Below, piece after piece: positions 3,294 through 45,537 of a DNA stretch of 64,000 nt. The notes under the pieces were generated by a model. The model did not search any database, was not told the origin of the DNA, and was given only the letters and a program-made list of their open reading frames with translations. Numbering within the stretch: position 1 is the first letter of the stretch; each line of letters begins with the position of its first letter. The DNA lies in NCBI GenBank assembly GCA_014685065.1, contig GCA_014685065.1_4092.1; one strand, 5' to 3'. A program made the translations under genes and the position numbers. The DNA comes from a phage.

Positions 3294-3300
3294 ACGAAAA

Positions 3301-16489: not shown

Positions 16490-16503
16490 TATGACATCCT
16501 CCC

Positions 16504-23369: not shown

Positions 23370-23409
23370 GTTTATTAATTAGAGTGACGTGAATCACATA
23401 GGAGAATAC

Positions 23410-25698: not shown

Positions 25699-25706
25699 AA
25701 AAAGAA

Positions 25707-25735
25707 AAGGAGAGCAATATGCTCTCCTTTTTTAT
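25707..25735. terminator. bidirectional intrinsic terminator
   Basis: AAGGAGAGC-AATAT-GCTCTCCTT hairpin followed by TTTTTTATT; between convergent clpA-like and giant gene. Confidence 0.7.
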
Positions 25736-28700
25736 TACTTAACTAATAATATATTTTTAATATCATTACCACTAACTTGTAGACTATCAGTGTATACTGA
25801 AAGATCTATAGTGTAACTATTTTGTGTGTAACGTTTTAACATATCATAATTACCTAAATTAATTCCATTGAATGAATATGTAGTATTAAGTTTAAAATCA
25901 TGTTCTGCACTATACATTACTCCACGGAGTAAATTATTTGCATTTCTAACTTCAACTTTTTCATATCCAATCGATATAATATCATTCATGTTCGCGGCAG
26001 AACCGGATAAAACATTATTTCTAATACTATAAGGACTTATTGATTTAGGTTGAGAAACATAGGTTGTATTTTCTTCACTAATGGTTGTGATGTTAGTAAC
26101 CGTGCCACCAACAACACCGATGTACATACCGTCAACCATTGGATATCCATAAACCCATATACCTTCATTATTTCTAAACGGTTGAATAACACTTGAATCA
26201 TATTCAATAACGTTGATTTCTAAACTATCAGTCATTTTAGTTCTTGCTAATTCACTAAGAACTCCCGCACCAGTAATTGGTAGGTTATAACCGTTGTCGA
26301 TAGTAATTCCATCAACATCAAATATTTCGTTAGAGATTATCCAAACGTCAACGTCATCTGGTGTTATTCCGTCATTGTACTTACCACCATTTAAAGTAGT
26401 ATCGTAGAAAACATCATAATTAATTACATCAATTGTGTAATTTCTATTTTGTTCGTACAATTTGATACCATTCTTCACAAATTCTGGGTCAGCAAATGTT
26501 CTAACACGAACAATGTTCAATGCAAGAGGCTGTACTGGCTCATTTTGTTGTGCAAGAGTGATATTATCATAACGGAGAACTGCACCAGTACTCTCATCAA
26601 TCAATTCAATCGTTTCTTTACCTGTATTTCTTACAGTGAATAGGATCGGAGTTGTATTGTTTTTGATGTTAGATACACGCAAGATTGTTTCCCATGTGTG
26701 ATTTTGATATCTCACGAAATCTTCACCATCAGGAGTGAAAATCATCACCTTATCACCATCAGATAGGTCATTGTCAACTATTTCTGCTTCAGTTAAGCTA
26801 TTAATAGATCTCACACGATAGAAATATTTTTCATCAAACTTCGATGTTGTTTTATTAATATCATTTTCAATCTTAGCATATGAAGGAATACTAACAATTG
26901 CTTCTGTATGTTTATATGGATTGATAATTGCCATACCTTCAGTTTGATATCTGCTGTTATCACGTAATTGTACAAGAGATACATTGTCAAACCCATATCC
27001 ATCAACTGTAAATCTAATTTGACCAACATCACGCCCAGAAGGGTTTATGTCAGATATATCCACAATATAAGGATCAACCTCATCATCTTTAACTTCCCAT
27101 TTTATTGAAGAAGTTTGAGATTCTAATGCTAGGTTATCAAATGCATTCATATCATTGAAGTACTTAGCTTCAGTAATACTATCAAGTATATATTGATAAT
27201 CTGAATACATTGGGTTATTTTGATCTAGTGGTAAATCATCTAGATTTATTTCAGCTAGTTCAATCATTTCACCATTTGTGATAAAATAATCTTCCATGAA
27301 ATCATCAATACTTTGTTCATCAGGTATACTTTGATATACACCGTTAACATTTAAGTAAACATATTTTCGTGGAATCATTGTAATTGCATAGATATCAATT
27401 GGGGTTTTACTAAGAATCTCTTCAGCTTTTTCGTACTTATCAGTAGCGTCTTTGTCGAATAACCCTCTCATACCTGCTAATACGTGAATAGCATCAGTAT
27501 AGAAACGGGTATCACCACCGACTTCATCATAACGATAAACATATACACCATACTCAACTTCAAGTTTAACTTTTACTTCATAGTCTGATGCGTCAGGATT
27601 TTTATCTTTAATTAATGAAATATATTTTTGATACAGTTCACTGCTTATTTCAAAATATCCATAGTTATAATCATTACTAGAAGAAAAGCCTAATGGAAGT
27701 CTAGTACTAGGATTGTCATTATAAGTAAGTCCACTAAATCCACAACCAACTTCATCGTGAATTTTCTCATCACTTATATCTTTATAAAGTTTCAAACGGT
27801 TTGCCAATGTGTTATACTGAACATATTGTCTAAGGTCAGTAAACATATCGTTCTGCGTTGATTCTTTATAAACACGCTCCAATGTAGCAGTAAATTCATC
27901 TGTTGCTTCTAAATCTTCCGCATGGTCTTTATACCACTGGTTAACACCATATGCTGTTCCTAATGTTACATCCAATTCTGGATAGTAGATTTGCATTTGA
28001 TAAGCAATAAGAAGATCGAAAGTTTCTTCACTATATTCTGGGAAAGAATATATATAACGTTGTAATTCATAGTTACTAACAGCATCCTTTTCATTGGATT
28101 GATATTTGTTATTAACACTTACTAATTCATTTATGCTTGCCAAATCTGCATTTGGTTTACATTGAATGTTATCGTAATGCATAATAATATCAATTTCTTG
28201 GAATCTTCTATTTGGTGTAATGAAATCACTTGGTAGTGAACCTACCTGTTCCCATTTTTGGGTAATTTCATTAAATTGAGCGTACTCATAATCCCAAATA
28301 TCTTTTTCAGTTTTGACCCAAGAACCGTCAACGAAAATATATCCATTAGGATCTAAATCATTACACAGACCTTTTATTAAATCATCATCAGATGTCTTTT
28401 GCTCTATTTGTGAACGAATTTTAGTTCTATAAGGTTTAACTTCTTCAAAATATTCAACAATTTGATTAATCAAATTATCGTTTGAATAGTTTTGAACTAA
28501 TGATTGTTCCAAACCAACAATATAGATATATGATGTTTTAAATACCCAATCCACAACACTTTGTTCAACATGTACATATTTGACCATATCAAAAACAATT
28601 TCGCTTTGATGTAAATCGAAAGAATTTTTGAGTAAAGCTAGTGCTTTACGAACGTTGATTTCACGATTGCTTAGTGAACCATTATCATTATGAACACTAT

Positions 28701-31700
28701 AATCTGCGTAAAGCATATCATTGAGTTCAACTGTACTGTTTTCACGACCAATCGCTTTCCAATAAATTGAATCGCGTGATTGTGATTTAATATACAATGT
28801 CCAAATGTTTTCACTATCGGTAACTCTGATAATATCGCCAACTTGGTAGTTTTTAGTATTAGCATCTTCTAAGCTTGACTCTTGAGTATAAGTCGTGTTA
28901 CTATCATACCCAACATCATACCAATCAGCATATGACCAGTACTGAGTCATGTCCAATGAAGTTCCCAGTGATTCAACATAATCAGATTGTTTAATCATTT
29001 TATGTTGACCCTCACCTTTGTTCTCTAACGTTATAGTAACAACACTACCCGCGTTTGCTGGACTATTCATTAACTGAATATATCCATTTTCGTCGAAGTG
29101 AATAAAATAAACAGCACTAGAAGTTAATGGATTTGGTAGATATCCACTAGTACTTAAAATAACAGCGTCATTTTCTTTAAATTTATCACTTTCAACTGCA
29201 ATAACTAATTCATTATTGTAAGACAATACACGGAAAGAAACTTCATTCGGATTAACTTCAGTGGTTTTAACATTAAACACATCTTCCATAACAACACTAT
29301 TAGTGGTTATGTTTTGTGACCTATAATAATTATTAGCACTTTCTACAAAGTTTCTACGAGCTTCTATAACATTTTGGAACCAAGTTTTGTTTGAACCTAA
29401 ACCGTTATCAACATCTGGATATAATAAATTAATCACAGAACCTGATTCAGTTGTTTCTTGACCAATTAGTGAGTTCCACATTGAATCCCAAATTAGTGGG
29501 TTAAAGTTATAGCTGTCACCTTCTTTACATAGTTGATACTGGTCATGTTTAACAACTTCAGTACTATCCATATAATAAGAAACAGTTAAAATACTGGTAT
29601 CATCATTCACTTTAAATTGCATATTACTAAGAATAAACGAGTTTTCATTGATTGGAGCGAACCAAGGAATGTTTAGCTGTGTTGGATCTTTAATAATACG
29701 AGCAATGTCAGTACATGATTTTGTTCTGGTATGTAGTGGTGGTACATAAATTGTATCACGTACCCAGAAATAGTATTTTGTCACATAACTATCAGTTGAA
29801 CTATCATATTCCAAAAATGTACTATAATTATCTTCAAGTGCAGTTCCACTTGGTAGATACATAGTATTATTTTTGTTTTTCTTAGCAACATCTTTACAGT
29901 ATTTGTCCCAGTTATATGGCTCAACTGGTGAACAAACCCACTCTAACACATCAATTGTACTATGTGGTAATAAACGACCCCAGTTGTAACGTTTGTATTC
30001 ATTGGTTGCATCAATGTCAACATTACCGTCTGCGTCATAAATTGCACGAGTATAATCCAAATAAAATGCAGTGCTAGTGTTCCACCATACTTGACCAACT
30101 TTATCAGCACCCCAAGCCTGGATTAACTCTCCATTACTATTATACTGTGCAGGATCAACTGGTGAAGTATATGTTACGTTTTGCATAGCCGCACCTGGAA
30201 TAACACCATTAATTGGGTCATAAACGTTTAGATATAGCTCAGTAATGTTAGTACGTTCATCATATGTCGTTGGACGATCAAATAAAGTACTTTGTGGTGC
30301 TTTAAAACTATATTTCTTGTCAATGTAAGCTTGACGTTCATCAGTACTGGCAAAACGTGATACATAACGATACAAACGTGGACGTGTATCTGGATCAGTA
30401 AATTCAATATCAATAGAAGTATCAAATGGAACTACCATAACTTTAGGATCAGAACCAGCAGTATAATATTGACTTTCTACTGTTAAAGTATCTGGCATAA
30501 AGTTAGTTTCATCAACAAAATAATAATAATCACCATCTTCAAGTGGTACATTATCAGTTAAAGTTACTTTACAAAATTGTTCAGCATACACATCGGTATT
30601 TTCAATAGGTGTTATAGAAACCATTTGCACATTAGTATCAACCAATTCAAAAATGTTCCACAAACCATTACCGTCTTTAAACATCCACACAGATTCAGGA
30701 TTTTCACCTTTACCATTAGTATAAGTTATGCGGTCATTATATGCAGTACTGAAATCTTTTGTTGTGTACGATACTTCATCCAATGTTACTGGACCAATAT
30801 CTGGAAGTTGGATATTTTCACTTCTTCCACTACGCATTGGGAATGAGAACTTACCATTTGGACGTGTAATCCAACGAGGATCTTTACCCTGCTCACCGAA
30901 GTATACAATATGATTACCATTACCATTTGAAGTTGCATTTACATCAAAAGAAACCATTTGAGGTTGTTGTTTAAATTGGTCATTGATTAGTTTAAATTGA
31001 AGGTTTTTCTTACCATCAATATTACCATATGTACCAATTTTAAATGCCCATTCTTGTAATGCTTTATATTCATCAGTGTCATATGATTTAGAAACACGAA
31101 GTACACGTTCTAAAACTTGGTTAGTACCTTTATCGTGAATGAATCCTTTATAGAAATCAACACGACTAACATCACTACTAATCATACGCTGTAGATAATC
31201 ACGAGATTGATAACCAATCAAATGGTTTGACAACTCTTGTAATTGTACATCACTTACTGGAGTTTCACTATCATAATAATGTTGGAAATCCGACACTAAT
31301 TTTTCAAATGATGGTAGTGTTCCAGCTTCCAAGATAATAAATCCAGGAGCTTGTAGGCGACCAGTCCATGAACCAGTAATATATCCATACATTTTAATTA
31401 GTTCTTGAATAGAACCATATGTTGGCTGATAAATGTAATCACCAAAAATAGTTTTATCATCAAAAATAACAGCATGTTCATATGAACACAAACTTAAACG
31501 AATCAATGCAATGCGTTTATTAGATTCTAAAGTTCTAACAGTGAAGATATTTCCAATACGAGAAGTTTCAATTTCATATTGGCGAATACCTTGGTTATTA
31601 TCATCAAGTAATGACCATACACCACCATTATTTTGCGTAATAGATTGTACTGAACCAAAGTCTGCCCCAAATTTAGCGTTTGCAGCACTTGGGGTACAAG

Positions 31701-34700
31701 AAATAAATTCACCAGTTACTAGAGAATTCTGACTCCAGATCACGAAATCTTTAGCAATAGTGTTCCAATCTTGTTGAGCACCACTATCATTTACATCTTC
31801 AAAAATCCAACCATGTTCTTTAAGATATTCACCATATCCACAAATAAAAGTATAAACTTCTTGGTAACTATTGAAAACTTTACCATATTCAATTGAAGCT
31901 TCAGACTTCCATTCATTATAATGAACAACATTACGGTTTTCCAATTTAAGAGTTACTTTTCTACCATTTTTTACGGGAAGTTTATATTTAAATTTAGCAC
32001 CAACTAGATCATATCCATCAATCTGATATGCACTACCATTCCAAGTAATTTTGATCGCACTCATTTGCTCATCACGGATATTATTAGAACGAACAAGACC
32101 AATGGTTTGGTTTTCTTGTGAAATAAGACCGAAAGATTTAGCATTGAATGTTAGCTGATCTGCTTTAGTAAATCCTCCAATTTTATGACCAACATTTATA
32201 TAAGAAGAACGAACTACATCCCCATACTTGGTGGTAATATTTTTATTTTGATACATCAAATGGTCACTTACAAACATTTGATAACCAATTGTTCTTGTGC
32301 TATTTTCACCATGAACTACTGTATTTTTATCAAAATTAATACGCTTACGTGTATCACCATAAAGGAATTGTGAACCATCAGTGAATACTTCTTTTAAGTT
32401 ATCATTGCGGGTATCCCAGAAATAGTTAGCAAATTGTGCTGGTTTAGCTTTATACAAAAGCATCATTTGGTCATATGCAAACAATGTAGTGTTCATGTAT
32501 GTAAATTCCATGTCACCCATATCACCATATGTCCAAGGTTCTGCTCTATGATTTAAAGATCCAGACACTAAACCTAAAATTTCAGGTGCAATATATTCAA
32601 CCACACAAATATCAATACCAGAAGATGTTTTATTTCCAGTTTTTGTAATTTTGAATGGCTGTACACCAAATCTTTTATATTTGTCATATTGACCACGACG
32701 ATCACCAAATAAAATAGTTCCAGTACTGCTATCGCCAATAGTTCCGTCAATATCCCAAAGACCACTAGGAACTAAATCACCTTGCTCATTCATAACAAGT
32801 GCTTCATATACATATACAACATCACTATCACGTTCACCAACTTGAACAGCCGTTGGTTCGTATTCTTGGTTCCACCAAGTTGGACGTTGTGTAAAGCCAA
32901 ACATTTCCCACGGATGGGTAGCTGGGCGATATGTACCATATTGGTCAGTGTAAATGGCACGCCATGAACCACGTGCAGGAATTTCAGTACTTTGACCATT
33001 AACTACATAATAAGTGCCAGTATAGTTCCAAGTTCTCCAATTGTTAGGATCATAATCATGTGTACTATTACTGATACCATTAGTTGCGGTGAAGTTAATG
33101 TATCCACGTAGTAATAATGTTTGTTTCTCTTCAGCACTATATTCAGTTTTAGTGAAATATGGTGTAGGGAAAAGGTCATCACTATTCAATACTGGTACGT
33201 AATCAACATCTTTGAATTTATTATCAATACTATTAAAAATTCTATTTTCTAATTCATATACAACATCATCCATTTTATCAACACCATTGATAACACGGTA
33301 TGCTTTGGAAATAATACCAGTATGACTGATGTTATAACAGCTTGGTTTACTACCAGCAGTGAGGAATGTCGCTTTTTCTGGTACATATGCTTGAAGAATA
33401 CCTAAGAACTGTGGTGTTGGTGGTATAAATGCACGAATGAATCCAGAAGTACTTCCAACATTATCATAATAGAATGGGAATGAACTATCACGTCCCATAT
33501 TAATAGTAGTTAAAATTGCATCAACAATGTTTGCAGCACTATTTTGTAAAAAGTCTGATGGATTTTCATCATACATACGAAGCATTTGTGTATTAAATTT
33601 ATTAATGAATCTAAAATATTCAGATTGCATAAACATAGTTGCTTCAAATAAATCAATATCTTCATTTGCAGTATGTGCCATCAATGGAAGCATAGATGCT
33701 TCATTTTGGATAATTTTAGTACCTACGCCATTATTAACCAATCCTTTAGCCAAACGTTCTTCATAGTCATTGAAATCATCAGAAGAACCACGTGTAATGT
33801 TCTTTTGAATAATATCCTGAAAATGTAAAGTGTAGTCACCTTGGTTAATGTATATAATATTGGAATTGTATGGGTTATTTTGTAAGTTAATTGGAACTTC
33901 ATATGCACCTAATTCTTTATTAGGAGTTACAGTACTGCTATAAGTTCTAATTTGAATAACTGAATCTTCATCCAAATCTACAGTGCTATCTAAGGTGATA
34001 CTTTGAACTTGACCTTTTGATACATTTTTGGTATATTTTGATACATCAACACCATCAACAACAACTTCAATTATGTCAGAATCATTATCTAAAACTTTTT
34101 GTGCTAATTCGAATGTGTGGTCATATTTTACAATCTGAACACCATCACCAGTGATTGGATGCCAGTCTAGATAAGTTTCGCGGTCTGCTTTATAGTACTG
34201 ATAGGTTCTATCAACTTCAATAACATATGCATACATACCATCAACTGGTTCTTTAAAAACTTCCATATCATAAACAGTACTGAATACACGATACATATCA
34301 GTACGTTTGACTTGTGGAGTTTGTTTTACAAATTGTTTAGAGTACTCTTCTGAACGAACCCAATCGGTTTGAAGATTCATTTCATTATTTTCATCAATAA
34401 TGTTATAATAGTATAAACCATCAATTTCAACTTCTTTTCCAAGATGGTCATAGGTATAACGTTGGGATTGTAAAAAGTTTTCATAAATGTAATAATTATA
34501 ATCACCAAGTTCAATGTTATATCCATATACACTATCAGTTGCATAGTTGTAATTTATTTTAAAACCAAACAACTCTGAACCTTTAAAGTTACTTGATGGA
34601 TATGTAGTACTGTTGTCAAGTTTGATACCATTACGATCATAAAGTTGGAATTTAGGGAATACGTTAACACTAGTTTTTGATTGTGCACGAACCCACAAAG

Positions 34701-35706
34701 AACCATTCCAGTACATAGAACTATTACCATACTCATTACCTTTAGTGATTAGAACAACATCACCATCTTGAGGTTCACCACTTGGGCGTGATTCGGTTTC
34801 TTCTTCTGGATCTAGTGCTAAACCATAAACACGAGTACCATCTTGCATTTTTTTCACATATACATTATAAATTCTATTGTTTTCACCATTGTTACCAATA
34901 CTGGTGAATAGAATACGCATTCCATCTTGCGGAATAATACCATCAATACGTATACCACTATTAATATCTTTTTGAACGATATCTTCAGGTTTAATAATAT
35001 CAGAGAACAGATCAACAGTTCCACGGAATTTTGTACCGTAGTTAATTAGCTCAATATTTTTATTATATTCAATAATTGGTGCACGTGCACGAATAAAACG
35101 TGAATCTTGCATTAATTCTTCAGTTAATATTGAGCCATCTTCTAATGTTTCACCTAAAGTATACCAAAAGTTTTGTAGTGACCATGTATTACCATTAAGT
35201 GCTCCACGTTCCATTACAATGTAATCAGGTGAAGTAATATTATAAGAGTTTTTAGTATCCCAAAGATATGAGCTAAAATTGTTCATTTTATTTGGGTTAA
35301 TAGCTGGAGTCCATGCATAAAACTTACCGTTGAACAAACGGCTTTCATTATCGGTTAGTGCTCCATAATGATTCATGTATCCAACTAGATCATCATAAAA
35401 TTGAATTGAACGAATTGTCGAATCATCATTTTTTGAGACGTAAGCAGTGGACAACTGATAAAGTTGACGTGCTACAGTACTTTCATGTAAGAAGATATTA
35501 CCAGCAGCGGCAGGAGAACCCATATCACCAATATAGCCGTCAACTAATTCGTTTTCAGCCGGATTAAACCATTGTTGAATAACATCATCACTGACTTTTT
35601 GAATATCTTCTAAGCCTTGCATCCACTCAGGCAATCTTTTAATAAAAAGCTTCTTCTGTACTGCTTCAGCCATCTGTGTAGGTTGAAACTTAAAATTATT
35701 AGTCAT
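25735..35706 (-). CDS. giant virion protein (~3323 aa), probably baseplate/fibre-associated
   Basis: Uninterrupted ORF on the ORF track (25735-35736); start set at the second ATG because GGAG lies 8 nt upstream; sits downstream of the gp25-like and 1153-aa genes. Confidence 0.55.
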   Translation of the reverse strand: MTNNFKFQPTQMAEAVQKKLFIKRLPEWMQGLEDIQKVSDDVIQQWFNPAENELVDGYIGDMGSPAAAGNIFLHESTVARQLYQLSTAYVSKNDDSTIRSIQFYDDLVGYMNHYGALTDNESRLFNGKFYAWTPAINPNKMNNFSSYLWDTKNSYNITSPDYIVMERGALNGNTWSLQNFWYTLGETLEDGSILTEELMQDSRFIRARAPIIEYNKNIELINYGTKFRGTVDLFSDIIKPEDIVQKDINSGIRIDGIIPQDGMRILFTSIGNNGENNRIYNVYVKKMQDGTRVYGLALDPEEETESRPSGEPQDGDVVLITKGNEYGNSSMYWNGSLWVRAQSKTSVNVFPKFQLYDRNGIKLDNSTTYPSSNFKGSELFGFKINYNYATDSVYGYNIELGDYNYYIYENFLQSQRYTYDHLGKEVEIDGLYYYNIIDENNEMNLQTDWVRSEEYSKQFVKQTPQVKRTDMYRVFSTVYDMEVFKEPVDGMYAYVIEVDRTYQYYKADRETYLDWHPITGDGVQIVKYDHTFELAQKVLDNDSDIIEVVVDGVDVSKYTKNVSKGQVQSITLDSTVDLDEDSVIQIRTYSSTVTPNKELGAYEVPINLQNNPYNSNIIYINQGDYTLHFQDIIQKNITRGSSDDFNDYEERLAKGLVNNGVGTKIIQNEASMLPLMAHTANEDIDLFEATMFMQSEYFRFINKFNTQMLRMYDENPSDFLQNSAANIVDAILTTINMGRDSSFPFYYDNVGSTSGFIRAFIPPTPQFLGILQAYVPEKATFLTAGSKPSCYNISHTGIISKAYRVINGVDKMDDVVYELENRIFNSIDNKFKDVDYVPVLNSDDLFPTPYFTKTEYSAEEKQTLLLRGYINFTATNGISNSTHDYDPNNWRTWNYTGTYYVVNGQSTEIPARGSWRAIYTDQYGTYRPATHPWEMFGFTQRPTWWNQEYEPTAVQVGERDSDVVYVYEALVMNEQGDLVPSGLWDIDGTIGDSSTGTILFGDRRGQYDKYKRFGVQPFKITKTGNKTSSGIDICVVEYIAPEILGLVSGSLNHRAEPWTYGDMGDMEFTYMNTTLFAYDQMMLLYKAKPAQFANYFWDTRNDNLKEVFTDGSQFLYGDTRKRINFDKNTVVHGENSTRTIGYQMFVSDHLMYQNKNITTKYGDVVRSSYINVGHKIGGFTKADQLTFNAKSFGLISQENQTIGLVRSNNIRDEQMSAIKITWNGSAYQIDGYDLVGAKFKYKLPVKNGRKVTLKLENRNVVHYNEWKSEASIEYGKVFNSYQEVYTFICGYGEYLKEHGWIFEDVNDSGAQQDWNTIAKDFVIWSQNSLVTGEFISCTPSAANAKFGADFGSVQSITQNNGGVWSLLDDNNQGIRQYEIETSRIGNIFTVRTLESNKRIALIRLSLCSYEHAVIFDDKTIFGDYIYQPTYGSIQELIKMYGYITGSWTGRLQAPGFIILEAGTLPSFEKLVSDFQHYYDSETPVSDVQLQELSNHLIGYQSRDYLQRMISSDVSRVDFYKGFIHDKGTNQVLERVLRVSKSYDTDEYKALQEWAFKIGTYGNIDGKKNLQFKLINDQFKQQPQMVSFDVNATSNGNGNHIVYFGEQGKDPRWITRPNGKFSFPMRSGRSENIQLPDIGPVTLDEVSYTTKDFSTAYNDRITYTNGKGENPESVWMFKDGNGLWNIFELVDTNVQMVSITPIENTDVYAEQFCKVTLTDNVPLEDGDYYYFVDETNFMPDTLTVESQYYTAGSDPKVMVVPFDTSIDIEFTDPDTRPRLYRYVSRFASTDERQAYIDKKYSFKAPQSTLFDRPTTYDERTNITELYLNVYDPINGVIPGAAMQNVTYTSPVDPAQYNSNGELIQAWGADKVGQVWWNTSTAFYLDYTRAIYDADGNVDIDATNEYKRYNWGRLLPHSTIDVLEWVCSPVEPYNWDKYCKDVAKKNKNNTMYLPSGTALEDNYSTFLEYDSSTDSYVTKYYFWVRDTIYVPPLHTRTKSCTDIARIIKDPTQLNIPWFAPINENSFILSNMQFKVNDDTSILTVSYYMDSTEVVKHDQYQLCKEGDSYNFNPLIWDSMWNSLIGQETTESGSVINLLYPDVDNGLGSNKTWFQNVIEARRNFVESANNYYRSQNITTNSVVMEDVFNVKTTEVNPNEVSFRVLSYNNELVIAVESDKFKENDAVILSTSGYLPNPLTSSAVYFIHFDENGYIQLMNSPANAGSVVTITLENKGEGQHKMIKQSDYVESLGTSLDMTQYWSYADWYDVGYDSNTTYTQESSLEDANTKNYQVGDIIRVTDSENIWTLYIKSQSRDSIYWKAIGRENSTVELNDMLYADYSVHNDNGSLSNREINVRKALALLKNSFDLHQSEIVFDMVKYVHVEQSVVDWVFKTSYIYIVGLEQSLVQNYSNDNLINQIVEYFEEVKPYRTKIRSQIEQKTSDDDLIKGLCNDLDPNGYIFVDGSWVKTEKDIWDYEYAQFNEITQKWEQVGSLPSDFITPNRRFQEIDIIMHYDNIQCKPNADLASINELVSVNNKYQSNEKDAVSNYELQRYIYSFPEYSEETFDLLIAYQMQIYYPELDVTLGTAYGVNQWYKDHAEDLEATDEFTATLERVYKESTQNDMFTDLRQYVQYNTLANRLKLYKDISDEKIHDEVGCGFSGLTYNDNPSTRLPLGFSSSNDYNYGYFEISSELYQKYISLIKDKNPDASDYEVKVKLEVEYGVYVYRYDEVGGDTRFYTDAIHVLAGMRGLFDKDATDKYEKAEEILSKTPIDIYAITMIPRKYVYLNVNGVYQSIPDEQSIDDFMEDYFITNGEMIELAEINLDDLPLDQNNPMYSDYQYILDSITEAKYFNDMNAFDNLALESQTSSIKWEVKDDEVDPYIVDISDINPSGRDVGQIRFTVDGYGFDNVSLVQLRDNSRYQTEGMAIINPYKHTEAIVSIPSYAKIENDINKTTSKFDEKYFYRVRSINSLTEAEIVDNDLSDGDKVMIFTPDGEDFVRYQNHTWETILRVSNIKNNTTPILFTVRNTGKETIELIDESTGAVLRYDNITLAQQNEPVQPLALNIVRVRTFADPEFVKNGIKLYEQNRNYTIDVINYDVFYDTTLNGGKYNDGITPDDVDVWIISNEIFDVDGITIDNGYNLPITGAGVLSELARTKMTDSLEINVIEYDSSVIQPFRNNEGIWVYGYPMVDGMYIGVVGGTVTNITTISEENTTYVSQPKSISPYSIRNNVLSGSAANMNDIISIGYEKVEVRNANNLLRGVMYSAEHDFKLNTTYSFNGINLGNYDMLKRYTQNSYTIDLSVYTDSLQVSGNDIKNILLVK

Positions 35707-35754
35707 TTTTGGACTCCATATAATTCGTTCATTCATTTGATTTATTTATGATAT

Positions 35755-35778
35755 AAAAAAGGCGTTCCGAAGAACGCC
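35755..35778 (-). terminator. intrinsic terminator (minus strand)
   Basis: GGCGTTC-CGAA-GAACGCC hairpin with T-run on the minus strand. Confidence 0.55.
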
Positions 35779-35785
35779 CGTTATA

Positions 35786-38700
35786 TTAAGAACCGATATT
35801 AATATTACTTTTAGCTAGTGAGTTAACAATTTGAACATTTTCAACAGATGCAGTACTCAAGAATATTTGGTCTGAACGTGAAGGGATTTCAAATAGAGAA
35901 CCAAATTTCGAATTTGGATTTTGTGCAACTATAACAATAGTACTAATATGTCTACCTAACTGTGAGTGTATGTAAGTACACAAATCAGTATAATAGAAAC
36001 TTTCACCGAAATCCCAGTTATCAACATTGAAGTATTCATTAGTTAATGCTATGACATTTTGACGAATTTCATCATCACTCATTGTGCTGTTTGGTAATTT
36101 CACTACTTTAAAATCAGCTTTGTAATCTTCAGCAGCACTGTTTCCAAATAAAGGTAAGTACTCAGCACTATGCCAAATGATACTATCACTAATGACTATT
36201 TTTTGTTCAACATCTTTGAACATATCTTTTAATTCAACCGATGTTGGTGGTTTAGGAATACTACCAACAGCATTATTTTTCAACCAAACGTCAACTTCAG
36301 TTTTATATGAATTTGTTAATACATACATATCAATTAAGTTTGTTCTACTAGGATCAATGCGATTGTCGTCAGGTGCATAGTGTTTCCAATGGAAGTCTAT
36401 ACTAGTACGTGCATTAGTTTTAACAGTGTACTGTGAAGTAACATCTTTGTATCCATAATAATCTAGCTTCTGATTCTCGTCAGCATTAGTTCCCATGTTA
36501 TTAATTGCACGATAAAAAGCCAATTCAGGACTAACAGTGCCAGTATCATCGGAATAAGTTAAATTACTAATTAGTTGTCCCAAACGATCATTGTTATTGC
36601 CAACTGTTTGTTCAATAAAATAATATTTACCATCATAGTTAAAACCAACTAAAAATCCAGAACCTTTACTATATAATCCACTCAATGTGGTTGAACGAAT
36701 TGCGTTATTTCTAACAAATTCAGTTCTTTTATATGCATTCGGCTCTGCCAAAGCTTGTTCCATTGTATAAGACCACGATGAATCAAGAAGTGTGAAGGTA
36801 TCATTTGGTAAAGACAGTACTGATATAGTGAAATCACTATTTTCCTGAAATACCAAAATACCACCATATTTTAATGCATCGGTTCCAGTCCAAGTAGGAA
36901 CAATTTCTTTAAATTGGTTTGGTTCCAATGGTATACCATTACTATCTACTTTCCTAGATGTAACAATAACACGAGAACCATCTAGATAGCCATTCTCTTG
37001 TTGAATTGTGTCATAAATTTGAAAATCTATATTACTTGTCAATCCTGAATTACTACTACTAGTAGTGTTAGATGATAAAATTTCAATCTTATCACTTTGA
37101 ACTGTACCAGTACTTATATCAGTAATTTTTTTAGATGATACAAAGTAAAATCTTACTTTTTCTCCACCCACAAAAATATATTCAATACCGTTAGCATCAA
37201 ATTCCCAAGTTTCTGCTGTATATTTTACATTTATTATAATTAAAACTTCATTACCATTATACACAATAGTATCGTCATTAGTACTTGCTTCGATTGGAAC
37301 CCATGAAGTTGTTTCTTTATCATGTACAATTACAAAATCGGTTTTTTTATCCAACATAGCAGAAATAGACTGAACTTCAACTGTGTTAAATCTAGTTCTA
37401 TATGGTAATATGTACTCTATTGCTTGCATTCCACTAGGAACAGATGTGCTTAGTACATAAAAACCATTATCTAACACACTTACAACACTTGCCCATATCG
37501 TAGTACCAGAATTAGAAAATTTAATAAGAGTACCTACCTGATACGAACCATACACTGTTCCAGACGAACCCAAAATTCTGCCATATGTATTGGTTGTGTA
37601 ATTTGAATTGTACACTGGAGTCCATGCTTGTTGTATTTCAATACCAATTGTATTGGATGGATACGCTTGGTAACGTTGTATTACTGCATTTTCCCCAATC
37701 AATGGTTGAATATTGTCAATAACAATACTAGCATTTGTTTTTGTAGTTGGGAGCAATAACGATCTATTAAATTGCGTGTTTTCTTGATATAATGCACCAT
37801 CATCACTAAAAACGTCGGTATTCTGATACTTACCAGTAGGATCATTGATATCAATGAACCTTGATTGACCACTATAAATTCTATTAATAGCTTTAGATTT
37901 AAGTACTGTATTTCCTAAACTAAGTGGTGCTATATTATAATCTTCACCATTGACAAAACGGTTTTGGGTATAGTACATTTGTGGTGCACGTGCTTTAATC
38001 TGCTCAATAGTTTCAGCACTTTGTGCACGGTCGGATTCATATTGTAATGAAAAACGTATATCCAATGTACTAGATTCATAACTTGACTGTGTTTTTGTAC
38101 GATATGTATATTTTACGCTTTTGTTTTGAATTTCAGAAGTTTTAATGTTATATGTTTTACCATTACTAACACGATACCATACACGGAACGTCCCACGGGG
38201 AACAACACCACTTCTTGAGTCTGGGTACTTAATTGTTATTTGGTCTTTATCACGAGTAGTAACAGCAAAAATTGTTTTTAATTGACGATTAACAGTGTTA
38301 TATGCAATACTTTCCATTGATGGAACTTTTGTCCATTTGGTACGAACAATACCATCTTCATTTATTTCTTGAACCCATACATCAGTTTCGTTGATATTAT
38401 CAACGTTAATATCTTGTATACGGTTCTCTTCACGGATAGCATATTGATAATCTTGATATGTTAATGTACCTTGTACGAAATATACAAAAAACCCAGTATT
38501 TGGTGAGCTAAATCCATTACCATCATTTTGATAAACAATATATTTTTGCTCTTGTGGTTCTGGATGTCGTTCTTCAACACCAACAGACGTAATATCAGGA
38601 TTCACTACTTCAAATGTCATAGATTCACCATTGACAGTTGCAATAAATGGAATACTGGGTGCTGTCATTGGGATGGTGTTCATTCGATATAGTTGACGGG

Positions 38701-39247
38701 AGACACCATTAACATCAATACGCTTGACTGGATTACCAAATTGGTTAGTACTGACAAATGAACTGTTCATTACTAGAATAAAGTTTTCATACCAGTTAGC
38801 ATCCATCGGGTCATTCCAACGAATAATTTTATCTTTTAATGATTCATTAAAACTATTACGAACATCTTGGTTTGTTTTAATTTCGGTTAATTTAGCAACT
38901 GCACGACCTGGATATGAGCGGCGTGGTGAGTAAGAAATCATTTTAGCTAGTTTTAGTACTGATGCACGACGAGTTGCAGTATCTAAAAAGTTTTCACGTG
39001 TGTTCAAATCCATACGAAATGCCAAGTTCTGACCTAGCATAGAAATCGTATCTAAAATAAAAATAAACTGGTCGTTTTCGATCCAGTCATTGAATGAGTC
39101 TGGGTAAGTTGCACGTAGATAATCAATCATACTCTGACGGATAGTGTCGAAATCATAAGCTGTTAGATTGATTTTATAAAAACTTTCATATACTTGAGTC
39201 CAATCCTCACCAGCGTATAAATTTGATTGCCTTTTTTGTTGTGACAT
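35786..39247 (-). CDS. large baseplate protein, possibly gp6-like wedge
   Basis: 1153 aa immediately downstream of the gp25-like gene, the conserved position of gp6/J-like wedge proteins in contractile baseplates; assignment is positional. Confidence 0.4.
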   Translation of the reverse strand: MSQQKRQSNLYAGEDWTQVYESFYKINLTAYDFDTIRQSMIDYLRATYPDSFNDWIENDQFIFILDTISMLGQNLAFRMDLNTRENFLDTATRRASVLKLAKMISYSPRRSYPGRAVAKLTEIKTNQDVRNSFNESLKDKIIRWNDPMDANWYENFILVMNSSFVSTNQFGNPVKRIDVNGVSRQLYRMNTIPMTAPSIPFIATVNGESMTFEVVNPDITSVGVEERHPEPQEQKYIVYQNDGNGFSSPNTGFFVYFVQGTLTYQDYQYAIREENRIQDINVDNINETDVWVQEINEDGIVRTKWTKVPSMESIAYNTVNRQLKTIFAVTTRDKDQITIKYPDSRSGVVPRGTFRVWYRVSNGKTYNIKTSEIQNKSVKYTYRTKTQSSYESSTLDIRFSLQYESDRAQSAETIEQIKARAPQMYYTQNRFVNGEDYNIAPLSLGNTVLKSKAINRIYSGQSRFIDINDPTGKYQNTDVFSDDGALYQENTQFNRSLLLPTTKTNASIVIDNIQPLIGENAVIQRYQAYPSNTIGIEIQQAWTPVYNSNYTTNTYGRILGSSGTVYGSYQVGTLIKFSNSGTTIWASVVSVLDNGFYVLSTSVPSGMQAIEYILPYRTRFNTVEVQSISAMLDKKTDFVIVHDKETTSWVPIEASTNDDTIVYNGNEVLIIINVKYTAETWEFDANGIEYIFVGGEKVRFYFVSSKKITDISTGTVQSDKIEILSSNTTSSSNSGLTSNIDFQIYDTIQQENGYLDGSRVIVTSRKVDSNGIPLEPNQFKEIVPTWTGTDALKYGGILVFQENSDFTISVLSLPNDTFTLLDSSWSYTMEQALAEPNAYKRTEFVRNNAIRSTTLSGLYSKGSGFLVGFNYDGKYYFIEQTVGNNNDRLGQLISNLTYSDDTGTVSPELAFYRAINNMGTNADENQKLDYYGYKDVTSQYTVKTNARTSIDFHWKHYAPDDNRIDPSRTNLIDMYVLTNSYKTEVDVWLKNNAVGSIPKPPTSVELKDMFKDVEQKIVISDSIIWHSAEYLPLFGNSAAEDYKADFKVVKLPNSTMSDDEIRQNVIALTNEYFNVDNWDFGESFYYTDLCTYIHSQLGRHISTIVIVAQNPNSKFGSLFEIPSRSDQIFLSTASVENVQIVNSLAKSNINIGS

Positions 39248-39312
39248 AATTTATTCCTTTAAATCAGTAAAGTACTAGTTCAGTACTGGGAATTATATAT
39301 AGAAATATTTAT

Positions 39313-39346
39313 TCAAAAAGAAAAGCACTCCGAAGAGTGCTTTTAT
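39313..39346. terminator. intrinsic terminator
   Basis: AAGCACTC-CGAA-GAGTGCTT hairpin with A/T runs on both sides. Confidence 0.55.
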
Positions 39347-39348
39347 AA

Positions 39349-39744
39349 TTATAAAGACGAAACTGAATATGTTGCCATTCGATTATTACTTCTTGCATCA
39401 AATACTATAGTAAGTTCTTCTAATGTGTCCAATACTACGTACTGTAATACAATATTCATTTGGTATCCATATTCTATTCTTGAAATTTGTAATTTTTTAA
39501 GATTTAAACGTGGGTCTAAGCTAATTATTCTACGGGCATCTGCTTCTAAAAGGTTGATAGTATTATAACCTTCCAATTCAAATAGCAAATCCCATGCAAT
39601 AAACCCATAGTCAGCATCAAATGCTCGTTCACCTTTTTTTGTATTGAAATGATTCATTAAATCTTGGCGAACCAATTCACTATCATACAATGTTTCAGTT
39701 CTACCAACTACAGGGGTAGAAAACCCTTTAAAAACAACTGCCAT
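39349..39744 (-). CDS. baseplate wedge protein, gp25/W-like
   Basis: 131 aa; motif RAFDADYGFIAWDLLFE resembles the gp25 family core (T4 gp25, recalled from memory); position next to hub and lysozyme genes. Confidence 0.6.
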   Translation of the reverse strand: MAVVFKGFSTPVVGRTETLYDSELVRQDLMNHFNTKKGERAFDADYGFIAWDLLFELEGYNTINLLEADARRIISLDPRLNLKKLQISRIEYGYQMNIVLQYVVLDTLEELTIVFDARSNNRMATYSVSSL

Positions 39745-39759
39745 TGTCTATTTCCTTTA

Positions 39760-40248: not shown

Positions 40249-40284
40249 AAAGATATCCTCGTTTTATTTATAGTGCTAAAATAT

Positions 40285-42948
40285 TTATTGACATGCCTCC
40301 AAACGACGAGCCATTAACTCCGCACGGCGTGTGGTTTGGCGATACCAAGCAGAATTGCGGATTTGTGCCGCTGCTTGTTTATAATTACCTTTTGCCATTT
40401 CTGATAACATAGTTTTAAATTTCAATACACCACCTTTACCCATCTGAAATACCATTTGGCATAGTACTTGTTGAGCAAGATAAGGAGTTTTCATGTTATA
40501 TGAAGCATAAATTGATTTGGCATCATAAATTGCTTTACTACTATCACGAACTAACATATCATTTGCTTGTTGTTCAGTTATTCCATCAGAGAAGTTTTCA
40601 CCGCTAACAATTAAGTGACCGTAACCAATAGTTGGATATCCACGACTATCTAAATAACGCCAGAACTTACCATTACGATAATATCCCTTTGCTTGTTGAT
40701 ATTGTAATGTACCCTCATATTCTTTTAATTCAGAAATAAACTGAGCATCACCTGGAACAACTTTCCAATCTATGGCTGTTTTATCAACATTACCTATATT
40801 ATAAGTTGGTTGCTCAACTGGCGTAGTTGAAACACCACTTCTTTGTGTTCTTCTTCGACGAGGAACATGTCGTGAACCACGTTGTGAATAACCTGTACCA
40901 ATTGTTTTAATTTTTGTAGTAACTACTAATTCATCACTATCAACAGAAGGTTGCACTACTGCTTGAGGTGCAGATTGATTGGTTGCTTTTCCTGCAATTA
41001 ATGTTTTATTGGCTGCGTCAGAACCAGTACCAGTTTGAGATGCATAAAATAGACCCGGATCAACTGAACCGCTAAAACCAAGCACGTTAGCTGATGTAAC
41101 ACGTATTTCAAACTGTATAACACCATTTGCTTTACCAACAACTTGTCCTTTTTGAACAACATCTTTGTTTAATAAATCAGATTGAATATTATAAAATACA
41201 GATTTATATCCTGACTTATGTTGTATTAACAGTGCACCATTAGTAATTACTATTACACCACCATCGGGTGCAACTATGTCACCTTTACATTGTATTTCCC
41301 ATCCAGAACGATCTGACTTCCCACCACTTTGTGTTGGAACACCTTTCCCCCAATAACCATATTGGCGAATAGTACCACTACATGGCATGAACATATGTAA
41401 ACCTTCATATGTAATACTATATCCAGTCATCCCAGGGTCAGATGTCATTAAATCTTGAGATTGCACTTGTTCAGTTTCTGATGTATAGTTTACAAACTGA
41501 ACAGCTTCTGTATCTTGTGCAACTGGTAGTTCTGGCGATACATCGTTTGCTGGCTGTGGTTGAACTGGTGATTCACTTGAGCCACTCCCCCCACCTTGCC
41601 TTGGTGGTTCAACATAACTACCATGATTTTCAGCATTAACCCAAGCGGCAATATCATGAATGTGTTCATTAAGACCAGCAGATGGTGTTCTGAAATTTGG
41701 TGCAGTAAATTCAGCAGTACCGCTATTACCACCACTATTAACTGTTAATGTTTGACCTCCACCACTAACAATTGCTGAAGATGAACCAATTAAGTTTGCA
41801 GATGTAGAAGCAGAAATAGACGCATTTGAACCAGCAGTAATATCAGTACTGCTACCACTTTGCATACGTAATGATGCAGCAGTAACTAAACGAAGGTCTG
41901 CCCCAGAATTAACAACAACTTGTCCACCAACTTTTGCATCAAGAGCACCAATTAGATCTAATTTAGTATTTGCACCAACTCGTGCATTGAAATCTTGTCC
42001 GGTTTCAATATTATATGAACGTCCAGCAGTAATATTAATATCTTGACCAGCACGAATATTAATATTCTTATCACAGTGCATGTCAATATCACCTTCACCA
42101 GTGAATTTTATACGTGCAGTGCCATCACGGTTAATTAAAAGAACATCACCAGTAGCTTCTGATAAAAGAAGTTGTGCACCACTACGTGTTTTTATTACGA
42201 CACCTTCATTTTTACGAGAACCAACACGTGTATCGTTTACTGGGTTATTAAATTGTGTATCTTGATATCCATCTGGGTCTTGATCCCACGTTGGTGCTGT
42301 TAATTCCTCTTCAGTATATCCATCATCAATAATAAAACTATTACCACGTGGCGAAGACATACCATATACAGTACTGGTGGTTTGTCGAGTACTACTACGA
42401 TTCGCCAACCCAGCTTCTTCGTCATATAAAAGGTTTTGCTTTTTAAGACCTGCGATAATTGGAACGTTAGCATATTTGTCTTGCATATCGGTAGTGATAG
42501 TGTTACGATCATAGTCAGTAACAGGAAGTGGCATATCAGTTCCACCATAATTACTTACTTCAGTTGCCATGCCTGGAACCATAGTATTCATACGCTGGTC
42601 ATATACACAACCAATCCAATATGCTTGGAATGTACGGGCTTGTGCAAAAATTACAACAACTGTACACCCTACGTCTGGTGGTACTGCCCAAAAACCGTAT
42701 CCTTTTGGATATTGACCATATGCATCAGCACTTGGAATACCTGGTGTTTTACCAGCAAAAGGAGACATGTAAGATGCTTCTATCCATGATTCTTTTGAGT
42801 TTTTATCACTTTGAGAACCTTGTATCCAAACTTTCAGTTTTCCTGATTTAGTTGGATCTCTGTTATCCATAACAGTTGCTAACTGCGGATAAGATGGGTC
42901 AAAACGACCCAACTGCTGTTGTGCATACTTTTTACTTGTATCTGCCAT
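40285..42948 (-). CDS. baseplate hub/cell-puncturing protein (gp5-like) with C-terminal lysozyme domain
   Basis: 887 aa; N-terminal gp5/gpV-like OB region (GKLKVWIQG...); central degenerate M23-like segment; C-terminal ~160 aa lysozyme domain (GYPTIGYGHL...). Confidence 0.65.
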   Translation of the reverse strand: MADTSKKYAQQQLGRFDPSYPQLATVMDNRDPTKSGKLKVWIQGSQSDKNSKESWIEASYMSPFAGKTPGIPSADAYGQYPKGYGFWAVPPDVGCTVVVIFAQARTFQAYWIGCVYDQRMNTMVPGMATEVSNYGGTDMPLPVTDYDRNTITTDMQDKYANVPIIAGLKKQNLLYDEEAGLANRSSTRQTTSTVYGMSSPRGNSFIIDDGYTEEELTAPTWDQDPDGYQDTQFNNPVNDTRVGSRKNEGVVIKTRSGAQLLLSEATGDVLLINRDGTARIKFTGEGDIDMHCDKNINIRAGQDINITAGRSYNIETGQDFNARVGANTKLDLIGALDAKVGGQVVVNSGADLRLVTAASLRMQSGSSTDITAGSNASISASTSANLIGSSSAIVSGGGQTLTVNSGGNSGTAEFTAPNFRTPSAGLNEHIHDIAAWVNAENHGSYVEPPRQGGGSGSSESPVQPQPANDVSPELPVAQDTEAVQFVNYTSETEQVQSQDLMTSDPGMTGYSITYEGLHMFMPCSGTIRQYGYWGKGVPTQSGGKSDRSGWEIQCKGDIVAPDGGVIVITNGALLIQHKSGYKSVFYNIQSDLLNKDVVQKGQVVGKANGVIQFEIRVTSANVLGFSGSVDPGLFYASQTGTGSDAANKTLIAGKATNQSAPQAVVQPSVDSDELVVTTKIKTIGTGYSQRGSRHVPRRRRTQRSGVSTTPVEQPTYNIGNVDKTAIDWKVVPGDAQFISELKEYEGTLQYQQAKGYYRNGKFWRYLDSRGYPTIGYGHLIVSGENFSDGITEQQANDMLVRDSSKAIYDAKSIYASYNMKTPYLAQQVLCQMVFQMGKGGVLKFKTMLSEMAKGNYKQAAAQIRNSAWYRQTTRRAELMARRLEACQ

Positions 42949-45222: not shown

Positions 45223-45537
45223 TTAGCCTATGTTTCGAGTACCATTAAGATAATTCTGTACTCTTTGATTTGCTGGTATTCTAATTGTTACTCCACTTTT
45301 AAAATTATATATAGGATCTTCTCCTAGTATGTCTGGATTTAACAATGCGAAAATATAATATAAGCGTTCATTACCATACATTTCGTATGCTAAACGCCAA
45401 GGTTGATATTCATATTTCAATGGGATCTCATAAAAATCATCAGTATCAGCCGGAACAATATCACGTGGTAAATTATACCCAAGATACCATGTTTGTTTCA
45501 CCTTAGCGTAAGGTGAGTATTGACTATAGTTGGACAT
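45223..45537 (-). CDS. hypothetical protein
   Basis: 104-aa ORF, start overlaps the upstream stop by 1 nt. Confidence 0.4.
   Translation of the reverse strand: MSNYSQYSPYAKVKQTWYLGYNLPRDIVPADTDDFYEIPLKYEYQPWRLAYEMYGNERLYYIFALLNPDILGEDPIYNFKSGVTIRIPANQRVQNYLNGTRNIG

What the first reader, a model, noticed from the sequence alone, without database searches (positions are those of the whole stretch)
25735..35706. Single ~10 kb gene encoding a ~3300-aa protein next to the baseplate core
An uninterrupted ORF of about 3323 codons follows the gp25-like and 1153-aa genes in the positions normally occupied by gp6/gp7-type wedge proteins. Its size far exceeds typical wedge proteins (T4 gp7 is about 1000 aa), implying a large elaboration of the baseplate periphery or a fused fibre/wedge protein.
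Basis: partly seen in the sequence, partly recalled or inferred. Interest (0 to 1): 0.5.

Follow-up and report, generated by a model that had tools for sequence, protein, structure and literature searches.

The report
Giant baseplate protein of jumbo phage
The 10-kb gene is real and already annotated: it encodes the 382-kDa virion protein of 121Q/RaK2-type jumbo phages, sits where baseplate wedge protein gp7 normally sits, and has no detectable relative among solved structures, so its exact role is still inferred.

Summary
An uninterrupted minus-strand ORF runs from 35706 (ATG preceded by GGAG) to 25735 and encodes 3,323 aa (381.8 kDa, pI 4.6).

The window is a 121Q/PBECO4/phAPEC6-type jumbo coliphage (99% nt identity). 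The gene is 121Q gp582, annotated "virion structural protein". Published mass spectrometry found the orthologues in virions: phAPEC6 gp245 and CBB_236.

The gene order is gp53-like, 749-aa protein, gp5-type hub-lysozyme, lysozyme, gp25, gp6-like (1,153 aa), then the giant gene. The gp25, gp6-like, giant order also holds in metagenomic relatives at 27–28% identity. The giant gene therefore occupies the gp7/gpI slot.

- Residues 1–2450 are a conserved core, and 1–1200 model compactly (pLDDT 87).
- The N-terminal ~160 aa define a family of at least 1,383 clusters, with members up to 6,281 aa.
- The C-terminal ~820 aa diverge fastest.

Best reading (confidence about 0.6): a gp7-position wedge and peripheral scaffold protein, one copy per wedge, anchored by its N-terminus and presenting fibre-docking or host-facing domains. 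The gene is known and its role is uncharacterised. Interest is moderate.

The parts
25735..35706 (-). Giant gene (3,323 codons plus stop). Orthologue of 121Q gp582, phAPEC6 gp245, CBB_236 and PA5oct gp128; phrog_10938.
35714..35717 (-). GGAG Shine-Dalgarno, 7 nt before the ATG at 35706. The in-frame ATG at 35736 has none.
35227..35706 (-). N-terminal domain (aa 1-160). It is one of the two most conserved segments and is always at the extreme N-terminus of family members. It contains a predicted helix-turn-helix (aa 12-47, invariant L25-P26) that is low-confidence in the monomer model. Proposed anchor to the gp6-like dimer.
32107..35706 (-). [not shown]
28357..35706 (-). Conserved core (aa 1-~2450), shared with all distant homologues. 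Insertion hot-spots lie after aa ~149 and at aa ~1600-1815.
28414..28443 (-). Invariant motif EVKPYRTKIR (aa 2422-2431). It lies inside a highly conserved run of long helices (aa ~2347-2452) that AF2 cannot place in a monomer. Proposed inter-subunit interface.
25738..28209 (-). Fast-evolving C-terminal region (aa 2500-3323): a helical domain (~2520-2860) followed by beta-barrel-rich domains (~2865-3323). It is replaced by unrelated sequence in homologues below about 40% identity.
35760..35779 (-). Terminator-like GC hairpin plus T-run between the gp6-like gene and the giant gene.
25705..25731 (-). Terminator-like 12-bp hairpin plus T-run immediately after the giant gene's stop codon. It lies between the giant gene and the convergent ClpA-like gene.
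35786..39247 (-). gp6-like baseplate wedge protein (1,153 aa; DUF8360/PF27647 family; phrog_10646 and phrog_219). Presumed partner of the giant protein.
39349..39744 (-). gp25-like sheath initiator (PF04965).
40285..42948 (-). gp5-type hub/spike protein with a C-terminal lysozyme.
45223..45537 (-). gp53-like wedge protein (PF11246, 22.4 bits against a cut-off of 21).

Best explanation
The gene encodes the gp7-position wedge and peripheral scaffold protein of the Rak2-like jumbo-myophage baseplate.

Proposed mechanism:
- One copy per wedge (six per virion, about 2.3 MDa in total) is anchored by its conserved N-terminal ~160 residues. These start with a helix-turn-helix that would join the N-terminal helices of two gp6-like (1,153-aa) subunits beneath gp25 and gp53.
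- The compact ~1,200-aa body and the rest of the conserved core (to aa ~2450) build the outer baseplate. Other phages assemble this from many separate proteins: T4 gp7-gp11, or phiKZ gp26, gp27, gp130, gp139 and gp157.
- The faster-evolving, loosely connected C-terminal ~820 aa face outward. They would dock the branched tail fibres and/or contact the host surface, and relay binding to the wedge ring that releases sheath contraction.

Shown: the ORF, its conservation, its virion presence, its synteny, its domain conservation pattern, and the absence of known folds.

Inferred: wedge membership, stoichiometry, the anchoring mode, and fibre docking or signalling.
For: 1. The gene order is collinear with T4 (53, 5..., 6, 7...) and P2 (V, W, J, I, H). 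In the window it is gp53-like, 749-aa protein, gp5-type hub, lysozyme, gp25, gp6-like, giant. The gp25, gp6-like, giant order also holds in metagenomic loci at 27-28% identity, where the preceding genes have similar sizes. One of those loci has tail-fibre genes immediately after the giant gene. PA5oct has gp128 next to gp129, gp130 and gp133.
2. Orthologues are virion components by MS, at the low coverage expected for a large protein: phAPEC6 gp245 at 7.6% coverage and CBB_236.
3. The N-terminal domain is one of the two most conserved segments. It is always N-terminal in at least 1,383 family representatives. It begins with helices 12-47 that are low-confidence in a monomer model. Known gp7-type proteins start with such an HTH that only packs in the (gp6)2-gp7 core bundle (XM1 gp17 residues 1-48, PMC10457771; Pam3; phiKZ gp128).
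5. No other T4 gp7-core homologue is BLAST-detectable in any Rak2-like genome.
6. P1 gp16 is a confirmed gp7 equivalent that has no HHpred hit. It was chosen because it lies next to the gp6 homologue. Giant PHROG families carrying the T4 gp7 core motif exist.
7. The polarity is peripheral: a conserved N-terminus and core, a variable C-terminus, and CBM_5_12 and FG-GAP adhesion-type inserts in distant homologues.
8. RaK2 long fibres attach to an unidentified baseplate partner through the gp528 anchor (PMC10253068).
Against: - No sequence or profile similarity to T4 gp7, P2 gpI, T4 gp6 or the protein's own gp6-like neighbour was found.
- The HTH is only a low-confidence monomer prediction. No complex could be modelled.
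- aa 1201-2220 were not modelled.
- Stoichiometry and location in the virion have not been measured.
- The 25-Å phAPEC6 tail map does not resolve the protein.
- The measured Rak2-like baseplate (about 35-36 nm wide) is smaller than that of T4, so part of the chain may extend outside it as an arm.
Confidence: 0.6

Rival explanations
1. It is a baseplate-attached arm or short fibre, or an adhesin, rather than the third member of the wedge heterotrimer. A monomeric chain of domains would be bolted to the periphery and would form the roughly 29-nm 'baseplate fibres with terminal globules' seen in CBB, acting mainly as a receptor-binding or spacing element. Some other undetected small protein would then play the gp7 role.
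For: - The C-terminal third models as loosely connected domains (pTM 0.35) and evolves fastest.
- Distant homologues carry CBM_5_12 and FG-GAP inserts.
- Weak fold hits are to N-terminal anchor domains of tail fibres and tailspikes: T7 gp17-N, CBA120 TSP4-N and Mtd-N-like proteins.
- CBB micrographs show short baseplate fibres.
- gp7 homology was not detected.
Against: - There are no repeats and no fibre-type folds.
- The first 1,200 aa are a compact body with pTM 0.82.
- The most conserved part is the extreme N-terminus, directly after the gp6-like gene in every locus examined.
- No alternative gp7 candidate was seen in the conserved module.
Confidence: 0.2
2. It is an internal or ejected protein encoded within the tail module. 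Candidates are a tape-measure-like protein, a pilot or channel protein, or an N4-like virion enzyme, and it would be delivered into the host at infection.
For: - Its size class resembles N4 vRNAP (about 3,500 aa; from general knowledge).
- It is a virion protein of unknown function.
- PHROGs files the family under 'head and packaging'.
Against: - No polymerase or enzyme family or fold was found.
- It is not a long helical tape-measure type: the architecture is mixed alpha/beta and confidently globular.
- There are no TM-like hydrophobic runs.
- The gene sits after gp6, not between the tube or chaperone genes and the hub.
- The exposed adhesion-type inserts in homologues argue for an external location.
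Confidence: 0.05
3. It forms another virion appendage, such as the hair-like tail whiskers or neck decorations of CBB and phAPEC6, and is only genetically adjacent to the baseplate genes.
For: phAPEC6 and CBB carry unusual tail hairs whose proteins are unassigned.
Against: - The family is conserved across many clades: RaK2, PA5oct, Atu_ph07, SCTP-2 and at least 1,383 metagenomic clusters.
- Synteny with gp25 and gp6 is strict.
- Hairs 119 nm long in many copies would need an abundant fibrous protein. This one is a non-repetitive globular protein recovered at low peptide coverage.
Confidence: 0.04
4. It is an artefact: a misassembly, or a chance or fused ORF.
For: A few Salmonella phage records have the gene split into 3-4 CDS.
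Against: - The ORF is intact in 35 or more independent genomes and in dozens of metagenomic contigs at nearly constant length.
- The chance probability is about 1e-108.
- Peptides from the orthologues have been detected.
- AF2 gives high confidence for aa 1-1200.
Confidence: 0.01

Closest known systems
T4 gp7 / P2 gpI / T6SS TssG-type wedge protein, the third chain of the (gp6)2-gp7 heterotrimer
   Same: - The gene lies directly after the gp6/J-type gene in a module that also has gp53, gp5 and gp25.
- It is a virion protein.
- It has a predicted N-terminal helix-turn-helix.
- The expected polarity is present: a conserved core-facing end and a variable outward end that in known systems carries fibre-docking sites (Pam3 gp23, XM1 gp17).
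   Different: - It is three times longer than T4 gp7 and about 19 times longer than P2 gpI.
- It has no detectable sequence, profile or fold similarity to them.
- In T4 gp7 the conserved core lies at residues ~646-759, whereas here the conserved anchor is at the extreme N-terminus.
Phage P1 gp16 (gp7 equivalent identified by cryo-EM)
   Same: P1 gp16 has no HHsearch or HHpred similarity to T4 gp7. It was assigned because it is encoded next to the gp6 homologue, and it is the proposed tail-fibre attachment point. The same logic and the same evidential situation apply here.
   Different: P1 gp16 is a small protein confirmed in density. The giant protein is unconfirmed and carries about 3,000 extra residues.
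phiKZ outer baseplate periphery (gp26, gp27, gp127, gp130, gp139, gp157 around the gp87(2)-gp128 wedges)
   Different: phiKZ builds the periphery from many separate medium-sized proteins in multiple copies. In the Rak2-like clade one 382-kDa chain would supply most of the extra mass. No homology was detected.
Giant PHROG families carrying the T4 gp7 core motif (phrog_2885, 4,179 positions, 'baseplate wedge subunit'; phrog_701; phrog_4406)
   Same: They are a precedent for multi-thousand-residue wedge proteins in phages.
   Different: This protein and 22 diverse relatives do not match those families. They form their own family, phrog_10938.

Membership tests
gp7 / gpI / TssG-type baseplate wedge protein | Encoded immediately downstream of the gp6/J-type gene within the baseplate module | tested here: met
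   Window gene order. The gp25, gp6-like, giant order also holds in loci L003, L004 and L005 at 27-28% identity and in PA5oct.
gp7 / gpI / TssG-type baseplate wedge protein | Helix-turn-helix that forms the core bundle with two gp6 N-terminal helix-turn-helix motifs, followed by the trifurcation unit | tested here: inconclusive
   [not shown]
gp7 / gpI / TssG-type baseplate wedge protein | Sequence or profile similarity to gp7/gpI families (Pfam Tail_P2_I and the T4 gp7 domain families; PHROGs 964, 48, 17744, 2885) | tested here: not met
   No Pfam hit for the whole protein or its segments. PHROGs returned only phrog_10938. hhalign against T4 gp7, the T4 gp7 core and P2 gpI was non-significant. 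PDB sequence and profile searches were empty. Confirmed members such as P1 gp16 also fail this test.
gp7 / gpI / TssG-type baseplate wedge protein | Fold similarity to a solved gp7-type chain | tested here: not met
   [not shown]
gp7 / gpI / TssG-type baseplate wedge protein | Structural component of the virion, six copies per baseplate | not testable with these tools
   Virion presence is published for orthologues. Copy number and location are unknown.
Tail fibre / tailspike | Trimeric fibrous architecture (repeats, beta-helix, coiled coil, intramolecular chaperone) | tested here: not met
   [not shown]
Tape measure protein | Long, mostly helical protein encoded between the tail chaperones and the hub | tested here: not met
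   The structure is beta-rich, compact and confidently folded. The gene lies after gp6.
Virion-packaged giant enzyme (N4 vRNAP-like) | Polymerase or other catalytic fold or motifs | tested here: not met
   [not shown]
phrog_10938 / Rak2-like 'largest ORF' virion structural protein | Full-length match to the family profile | tested here: met
   5,791 bits over positions 1-3324 of 3324. The gene is 99% identical at nt level to 121Q gp582.

The most novel reading that the evidence does not exclude
A single roughly 380-kDa chain with no detectable relative among solved structures replaces the multi-protein outer baseplate (the T4 gp7-gp11 or phiKZ star-lobe equivalent). It would be the hallmark wedge and fibre-platform protein of a very large clade of jumbo and huge phages: at least 1,383 clusters at 50% identity, with members up to 6,281 aa. 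Its two most conserved segments, which AF2 cannot fold in a monomer, are the N-terminal helix-turn-helix and the aa 2347-2452 helices containing EVKPYRTKIR. They would be the interfaces that couple fibre binding to sheath triggering.
Probability: 0.3. Interest if true: 0.6.

Novelty: new variant of a known kind. Interest (0 to 1): 0.4.

Why it matters
If the assignment is right, it identifies the missing outer-baseplate component of Rak2-like jumbo phages. It is also the likely docking partner for their branched, multi-depolymerase tail fibres, which matters for host-range engineering of Klebsiella and E. coli therapeutic phages.

It would also define a large structural family without detectable relatives among solved structures that is widespread in metagenomic huge phages. 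It would show a second route to a complex baseplate: one giant chain instead of many small proteins.

The practical novelty is limited. The gene is already annotated, is used as a landmark ("largest ORF") in the literature, and is known to be a virion protein.

Tried and rejected
- Pfam on the whole protein and on seven 323-500-aa segments at E<=5 gave nothing.
- PHROGs on segments and on 23 diverse N-terminal domains returned only the protein's own family.
- PDB sequence searches with the single protein, the whole-family profile and the N-terminal-domain profile gave nothing.
- hhalign of the N-terminal profile against T4 gp7, the T4 gp7 core, T4 gp6, P2 gpI and the profile of its own gp6-like neighbour was non-significant. 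An eyeballed resemblance of 'LLPxxxQTExLxKFF' to the T4 gp7 segment 'MMPDSYLLQDSNFEAFCEAY' was reproduced only as a non-significant local alignment. I do not rely on it.
- An attempt to build a T4 gp7-core profile returned only 3 homologues, so profile-profile testing could not be improved.
- The exhaustive HMM search with the N-terminal domain found only members of the same giant family among the 150 hits listed. It gave no bridge to small annotated wedge proteins.
- Self-BLAST for internal repeats found none.
- A literature search found no structure or functional assignment of this protein.
- I rejected the tape-measure, vRNAP-like, whisker and artefact readings, as set out under the rival explanations.
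Full report
**Observation**

The window contains one uninterrupted minus-strand ORF from 35736 to 25735, 3,333 codons from the first ATG. The ATG at 35706 is preceded by GGAG (35717-35714) at a 7-nt spacing. It matches the annotated start of the 121Q orthologue and the N-termini of the homologues. The product is 381.8 kDa, has pI 4.6, is rich in Asp, Asn and Tyr, and has no TM-like hydrophobic runs. At this base composition, about 7.2% of random codons are stops, so a 3,333-codon open frame has a probability of about 1e-108.

**Identity of the genome and prior knowledge**

The gene is 99% identical at nucleotide level to Escherichia phages 121Q, phAPEC6, PBECO4, G17, Sharanji and others. These are ~350-kb Asteriusvirus, "Rak2-like" jumbo myophages. 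Thirty-five records cover at least 80% of the gene.

In 121Q it is gp582, "virion structural protein". It is flanked upstream by gp583, "baseplate wedge (T4 gp6-like)", and by gp585 (gp25), gp586 and gp587 (lysozyme; hub plus lysozyme) and gp589 (wedge). A convergent ClpA-like gene lies downstream.

Mass spectrometry of purified virions detected the orthologues:
- phAPEC6 gp245: 381.88 kDa, 17 unique peptides, 7.6% coverage, listed directly after gp244, "baseplate wedge", 131 kDa (PMC7247149).
- CBB_236: 21 peptides (PMC5259590). That paper also uses the gene as "the largest ORF" to orient Rak2-like genomes.

I found no paper that assigns the protein a position or function.

**Context**

The module on the minus strand reads as follows:

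| Gene | Window coordinates | Evidence |
|---|---|---|
| gp53-like | 45223-45537 | PF11246, |
| 749-aa structural protein | 42962-45211 | |
| gp5-type hub with lysozyme | 40285-42948 | |
| free-standing lysozyme | 39760-40248 | |
| gp25 | 39349-39744 | |
| 1,153-aa gp6-like protein | 35786-39247 | |
| giant gene | 25735-35706 | |

The gp6-like protein matches phrog_219 at E=1e-20. Its N-terminal profile aligns collinearly to T4 gp6 residues 21-113 at E=6e-4. It belongs to the Pfam DUF8360 family.

This is the T4 order (53, 5..., 6, 7) and the P2 order (V, W, J, I, H). The giant gene takes the gp7/gpI slot. The gp25, gp6-like (~1,125 aa), giant order also holds in metagenomic loci whose giant proteins are only 27-28% identical, preceded by genes of similar sizes. 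One of those loci lies on a contig family reaching 512 kb and continues directly into tail-fibre genes. PA5oct has gp128 next to gp129, gp130 and gp133.

Terminator-like hairpins bracket the gene at 35779-35760 and 25731-25705.

**Family and anatomy**

The word-indexed search found 196 homologues. The full-length ones among the 120 listed are all giant, 2,780-5,638 aa.

An exhaustive HMM search with the N-terminal 157-position profile found 1,383 cluster representatives at 50% identity, 1,192 of them at E<=1e-10. In every hit listed, the domain starts within about the first 40 residues. Lengths reach 6,281 aa, and the median of complete members is about 3,700 aa.

Named phages carrying the family include RaK2, K64-1, GAP32, CBB, BF, XaC1, PA5oct, Atu_ph07 and SCTP-2.

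Mapping the alignments gives these regions:
- A conserved core at aa 1-~2450.
- Insertion hot-spots after aa ~149 and at ~1600-1815. In distant homologues the second hosts an FG-GAP repeat, and CBM_5_12 modules occur elsewhere.
- A C-terminal ~820 aa that is lineage-specific beyond about 40% identity.

Among full-length orthologues there are almost no indels. Identity is about 65% over aa 1-2500 and about 40% over aa 2500-3323. The drop is uniform at every divergence level, so it reflects faster evolution rather than mosaic exchange. The two most conserved segments are aa 1-150 and aa 2251-2500. The second contains the invariant motif EVKPYRTKIR at aa 2422-2431. There are no internal repeats.

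**Structure**

AlphaFold2 with a 35-sequence alignment models aa 1-1200 as one compact multidomain body (pLDDT 87.3, pTM 0.82). Only the N-terminal helices (aa 12-47, around invariant L25-P26) are low-confidence.

aa 2221-3323 gives pLDDT 67.7 and pTM 0.35. The C-terminal beta-rich domains are individually confident but loosely arranged. The long helices at aa ~2347-2452 are low-confidence. So the two most conserved stretches are the ones a monomer model cannot place. I read this, as an inference, as a sign that they are intermolecular interfaces.

Foldseek against BFVD returns only N-terminal fragments of the same family, with TM up to 0.86 and down to 13-20% identity. It also returns weak local matches to tail-fibre N-termini.

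**Membership tests**

Every sequence-based test for gp7/gpI membership failed. These were Pfam, PHROGs, PDB sequences, and hhalign against T4 gp7, its conserved core, P2 gpI, T4 gp6 and the neighbour's own N-terminus.

A defining feature was therefore tested and not met, and I do not file the protein as a demonstrated gp7 homologue. That test has low power for this family. The gp7 equivalent of phage P1 (gp16) also has no HHsearch or HHpred hit. It was picked because it is encoded next to the gp6 homologue, and it was then confirmed in the cryo-EM map.

[quoted passage not shown] No Rak2-like genome has any other BLAST-detectable T4 gp7 core. The T4 gp7 core also matches PHROG families with 3,231-6,136-position profiles, so giant wedge proteins have precedents.

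**Mechanism proposed**

The giant protein is the gp7-position wedge and peripheral scaffold protein, at a confidence of about 0.6. Six copies are anchored through the N-terminal domain to gp6-like dimers beneath gp25 and gp53. The conserved ~2,450-aa core builds the outer baseplate, which T4 makes from gp7-gp11 and phiKZ makes from five or more separate proteins. The divergent C-terminal domains face outward.

In known systems the gp7-type chain carries the fibre docking sites (Pam3 gp23, XM1 gp17, P1 gp16). In RaK2 the six branched long fibres attach through the gp528 anchor to an unidentified baseplate partner. This protein is the obvious candidate for that partner.

The main rival (about 0.2) is that it is a peripheral arm or adhesin attached to the wedge rather than a member of the heterotrimer. 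The tape-measure, ejected-enzyme, whisker and artefact readings are unlikely, as set out under the rival explanations.

**Verdict**

The position and virion association are supported. Homology to gp7 or to fibres was not detected.
- The gene is already annotated and known as a virion protein, so novelty lies only in its unassigned role and its lack of detectable structural relatives.
- I rate it a new variant of a known kind (baseplate wedge and periphery), with interest 0.4.

Noticed in passing
window 39248-39348, compared with L001 7721-8485 (121Q gp584): 121Q carries an HNH endonuclease gene ('protein associated with group I intron') between the gp25-like and gp6-like genes. The window has only a 101-nt spacer with a terminator-like hairpin there. 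This looks like a homing-endonuclease presence/absence polymorphism between near-identical phages.
   Followed up: partly
window 23389-25698 (+): A ClpA/ClpB-type double AAA+ ATPase (AAA_2, AAA, ClpB_D2-small, AAA_lid_9, weak Clp_N; GTG start) is encoded convergently, right after the giant gene. The two genes are separated only by the 25705-25731 hairpin. A phage unfoldase next to a 382-kDa structural gene might suggest an assembly chaperone, but the adjacency is not seen in the distant loci L003 and L004.
   Followed up: partly
L002 (T4) gp7 residues ~646-759: The conserved core of T4 gp7 matches PHROG families with giant profiles: phrog_2885 with 4,179 positions ('baseplate wedge subunit'), phrog_701 with 6,136 and phrog_4406 with 3,231. 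Multi-thousand-residue gp7-type wedge proteins therefore exist in other phage groups.
   Followed up: no
P0074 aa 1276-1306; P0089 aa 1668-1698 and 2352-2393: Distant homologues of the giant protein carry CBM_5_12 carbohydrate-binding modules. One has an FG-GAP repeat inside the aa ~1800 insertion hot-spot. In the precomputed Pfam hits, other family members show Laminin_G_3, TIG and Gly_rich_2 domains.
   Followed up: partly
phage records OQ411014 (EJP2), PP408249 (PAC2) and OR699181-OR699183 (Salmonella phages SD-2_S15, SD-6_S16 and SD-1_S14): Annotation of the orthologues is inconsistent. EJP2 calls it 'D-alanyl-D-alanine carboxypeptidase', for which I found no domain support. PAC2 calls it 'chitin-binding type-3 domain-containing protein'. 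The three Salmonella phage records split the gene into 3-4 CDS, probably through sequencing frameshifts.
   Followed up: no
window 39760-40248 (-): A free-standing 162-aa T4-type lysozyme gene sits between the hub-lysozyme gene and gp25. The baseplate module therefore encodes two lysozyme domains. This extra gene is absent from the distant loci L003 and L004.
   Followed up: no
window 35760-35779, 39321-39344 and 25705-25731 (-): Terminator-like hairpins follow each of gp25, the gp6-like gene and the giant gene. There are 10 such sites in the 15-kb region scanned (25400-40400), against 5.2 expected. Partial termination between the gp6-like gene and the giant gene could tune a 12:6 stoichiometry. 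This is speculative.
   Followed up: no
window 14348-17655 (-): Downstream genes include a pectate-lyase/endosialidase-N-like protein (the 121Q 'colanic acid-degrading protein') and a 383-aa protein with a weak collagen-repeat hit. Both are likely tailspike or fibre components.
   Followed up: no
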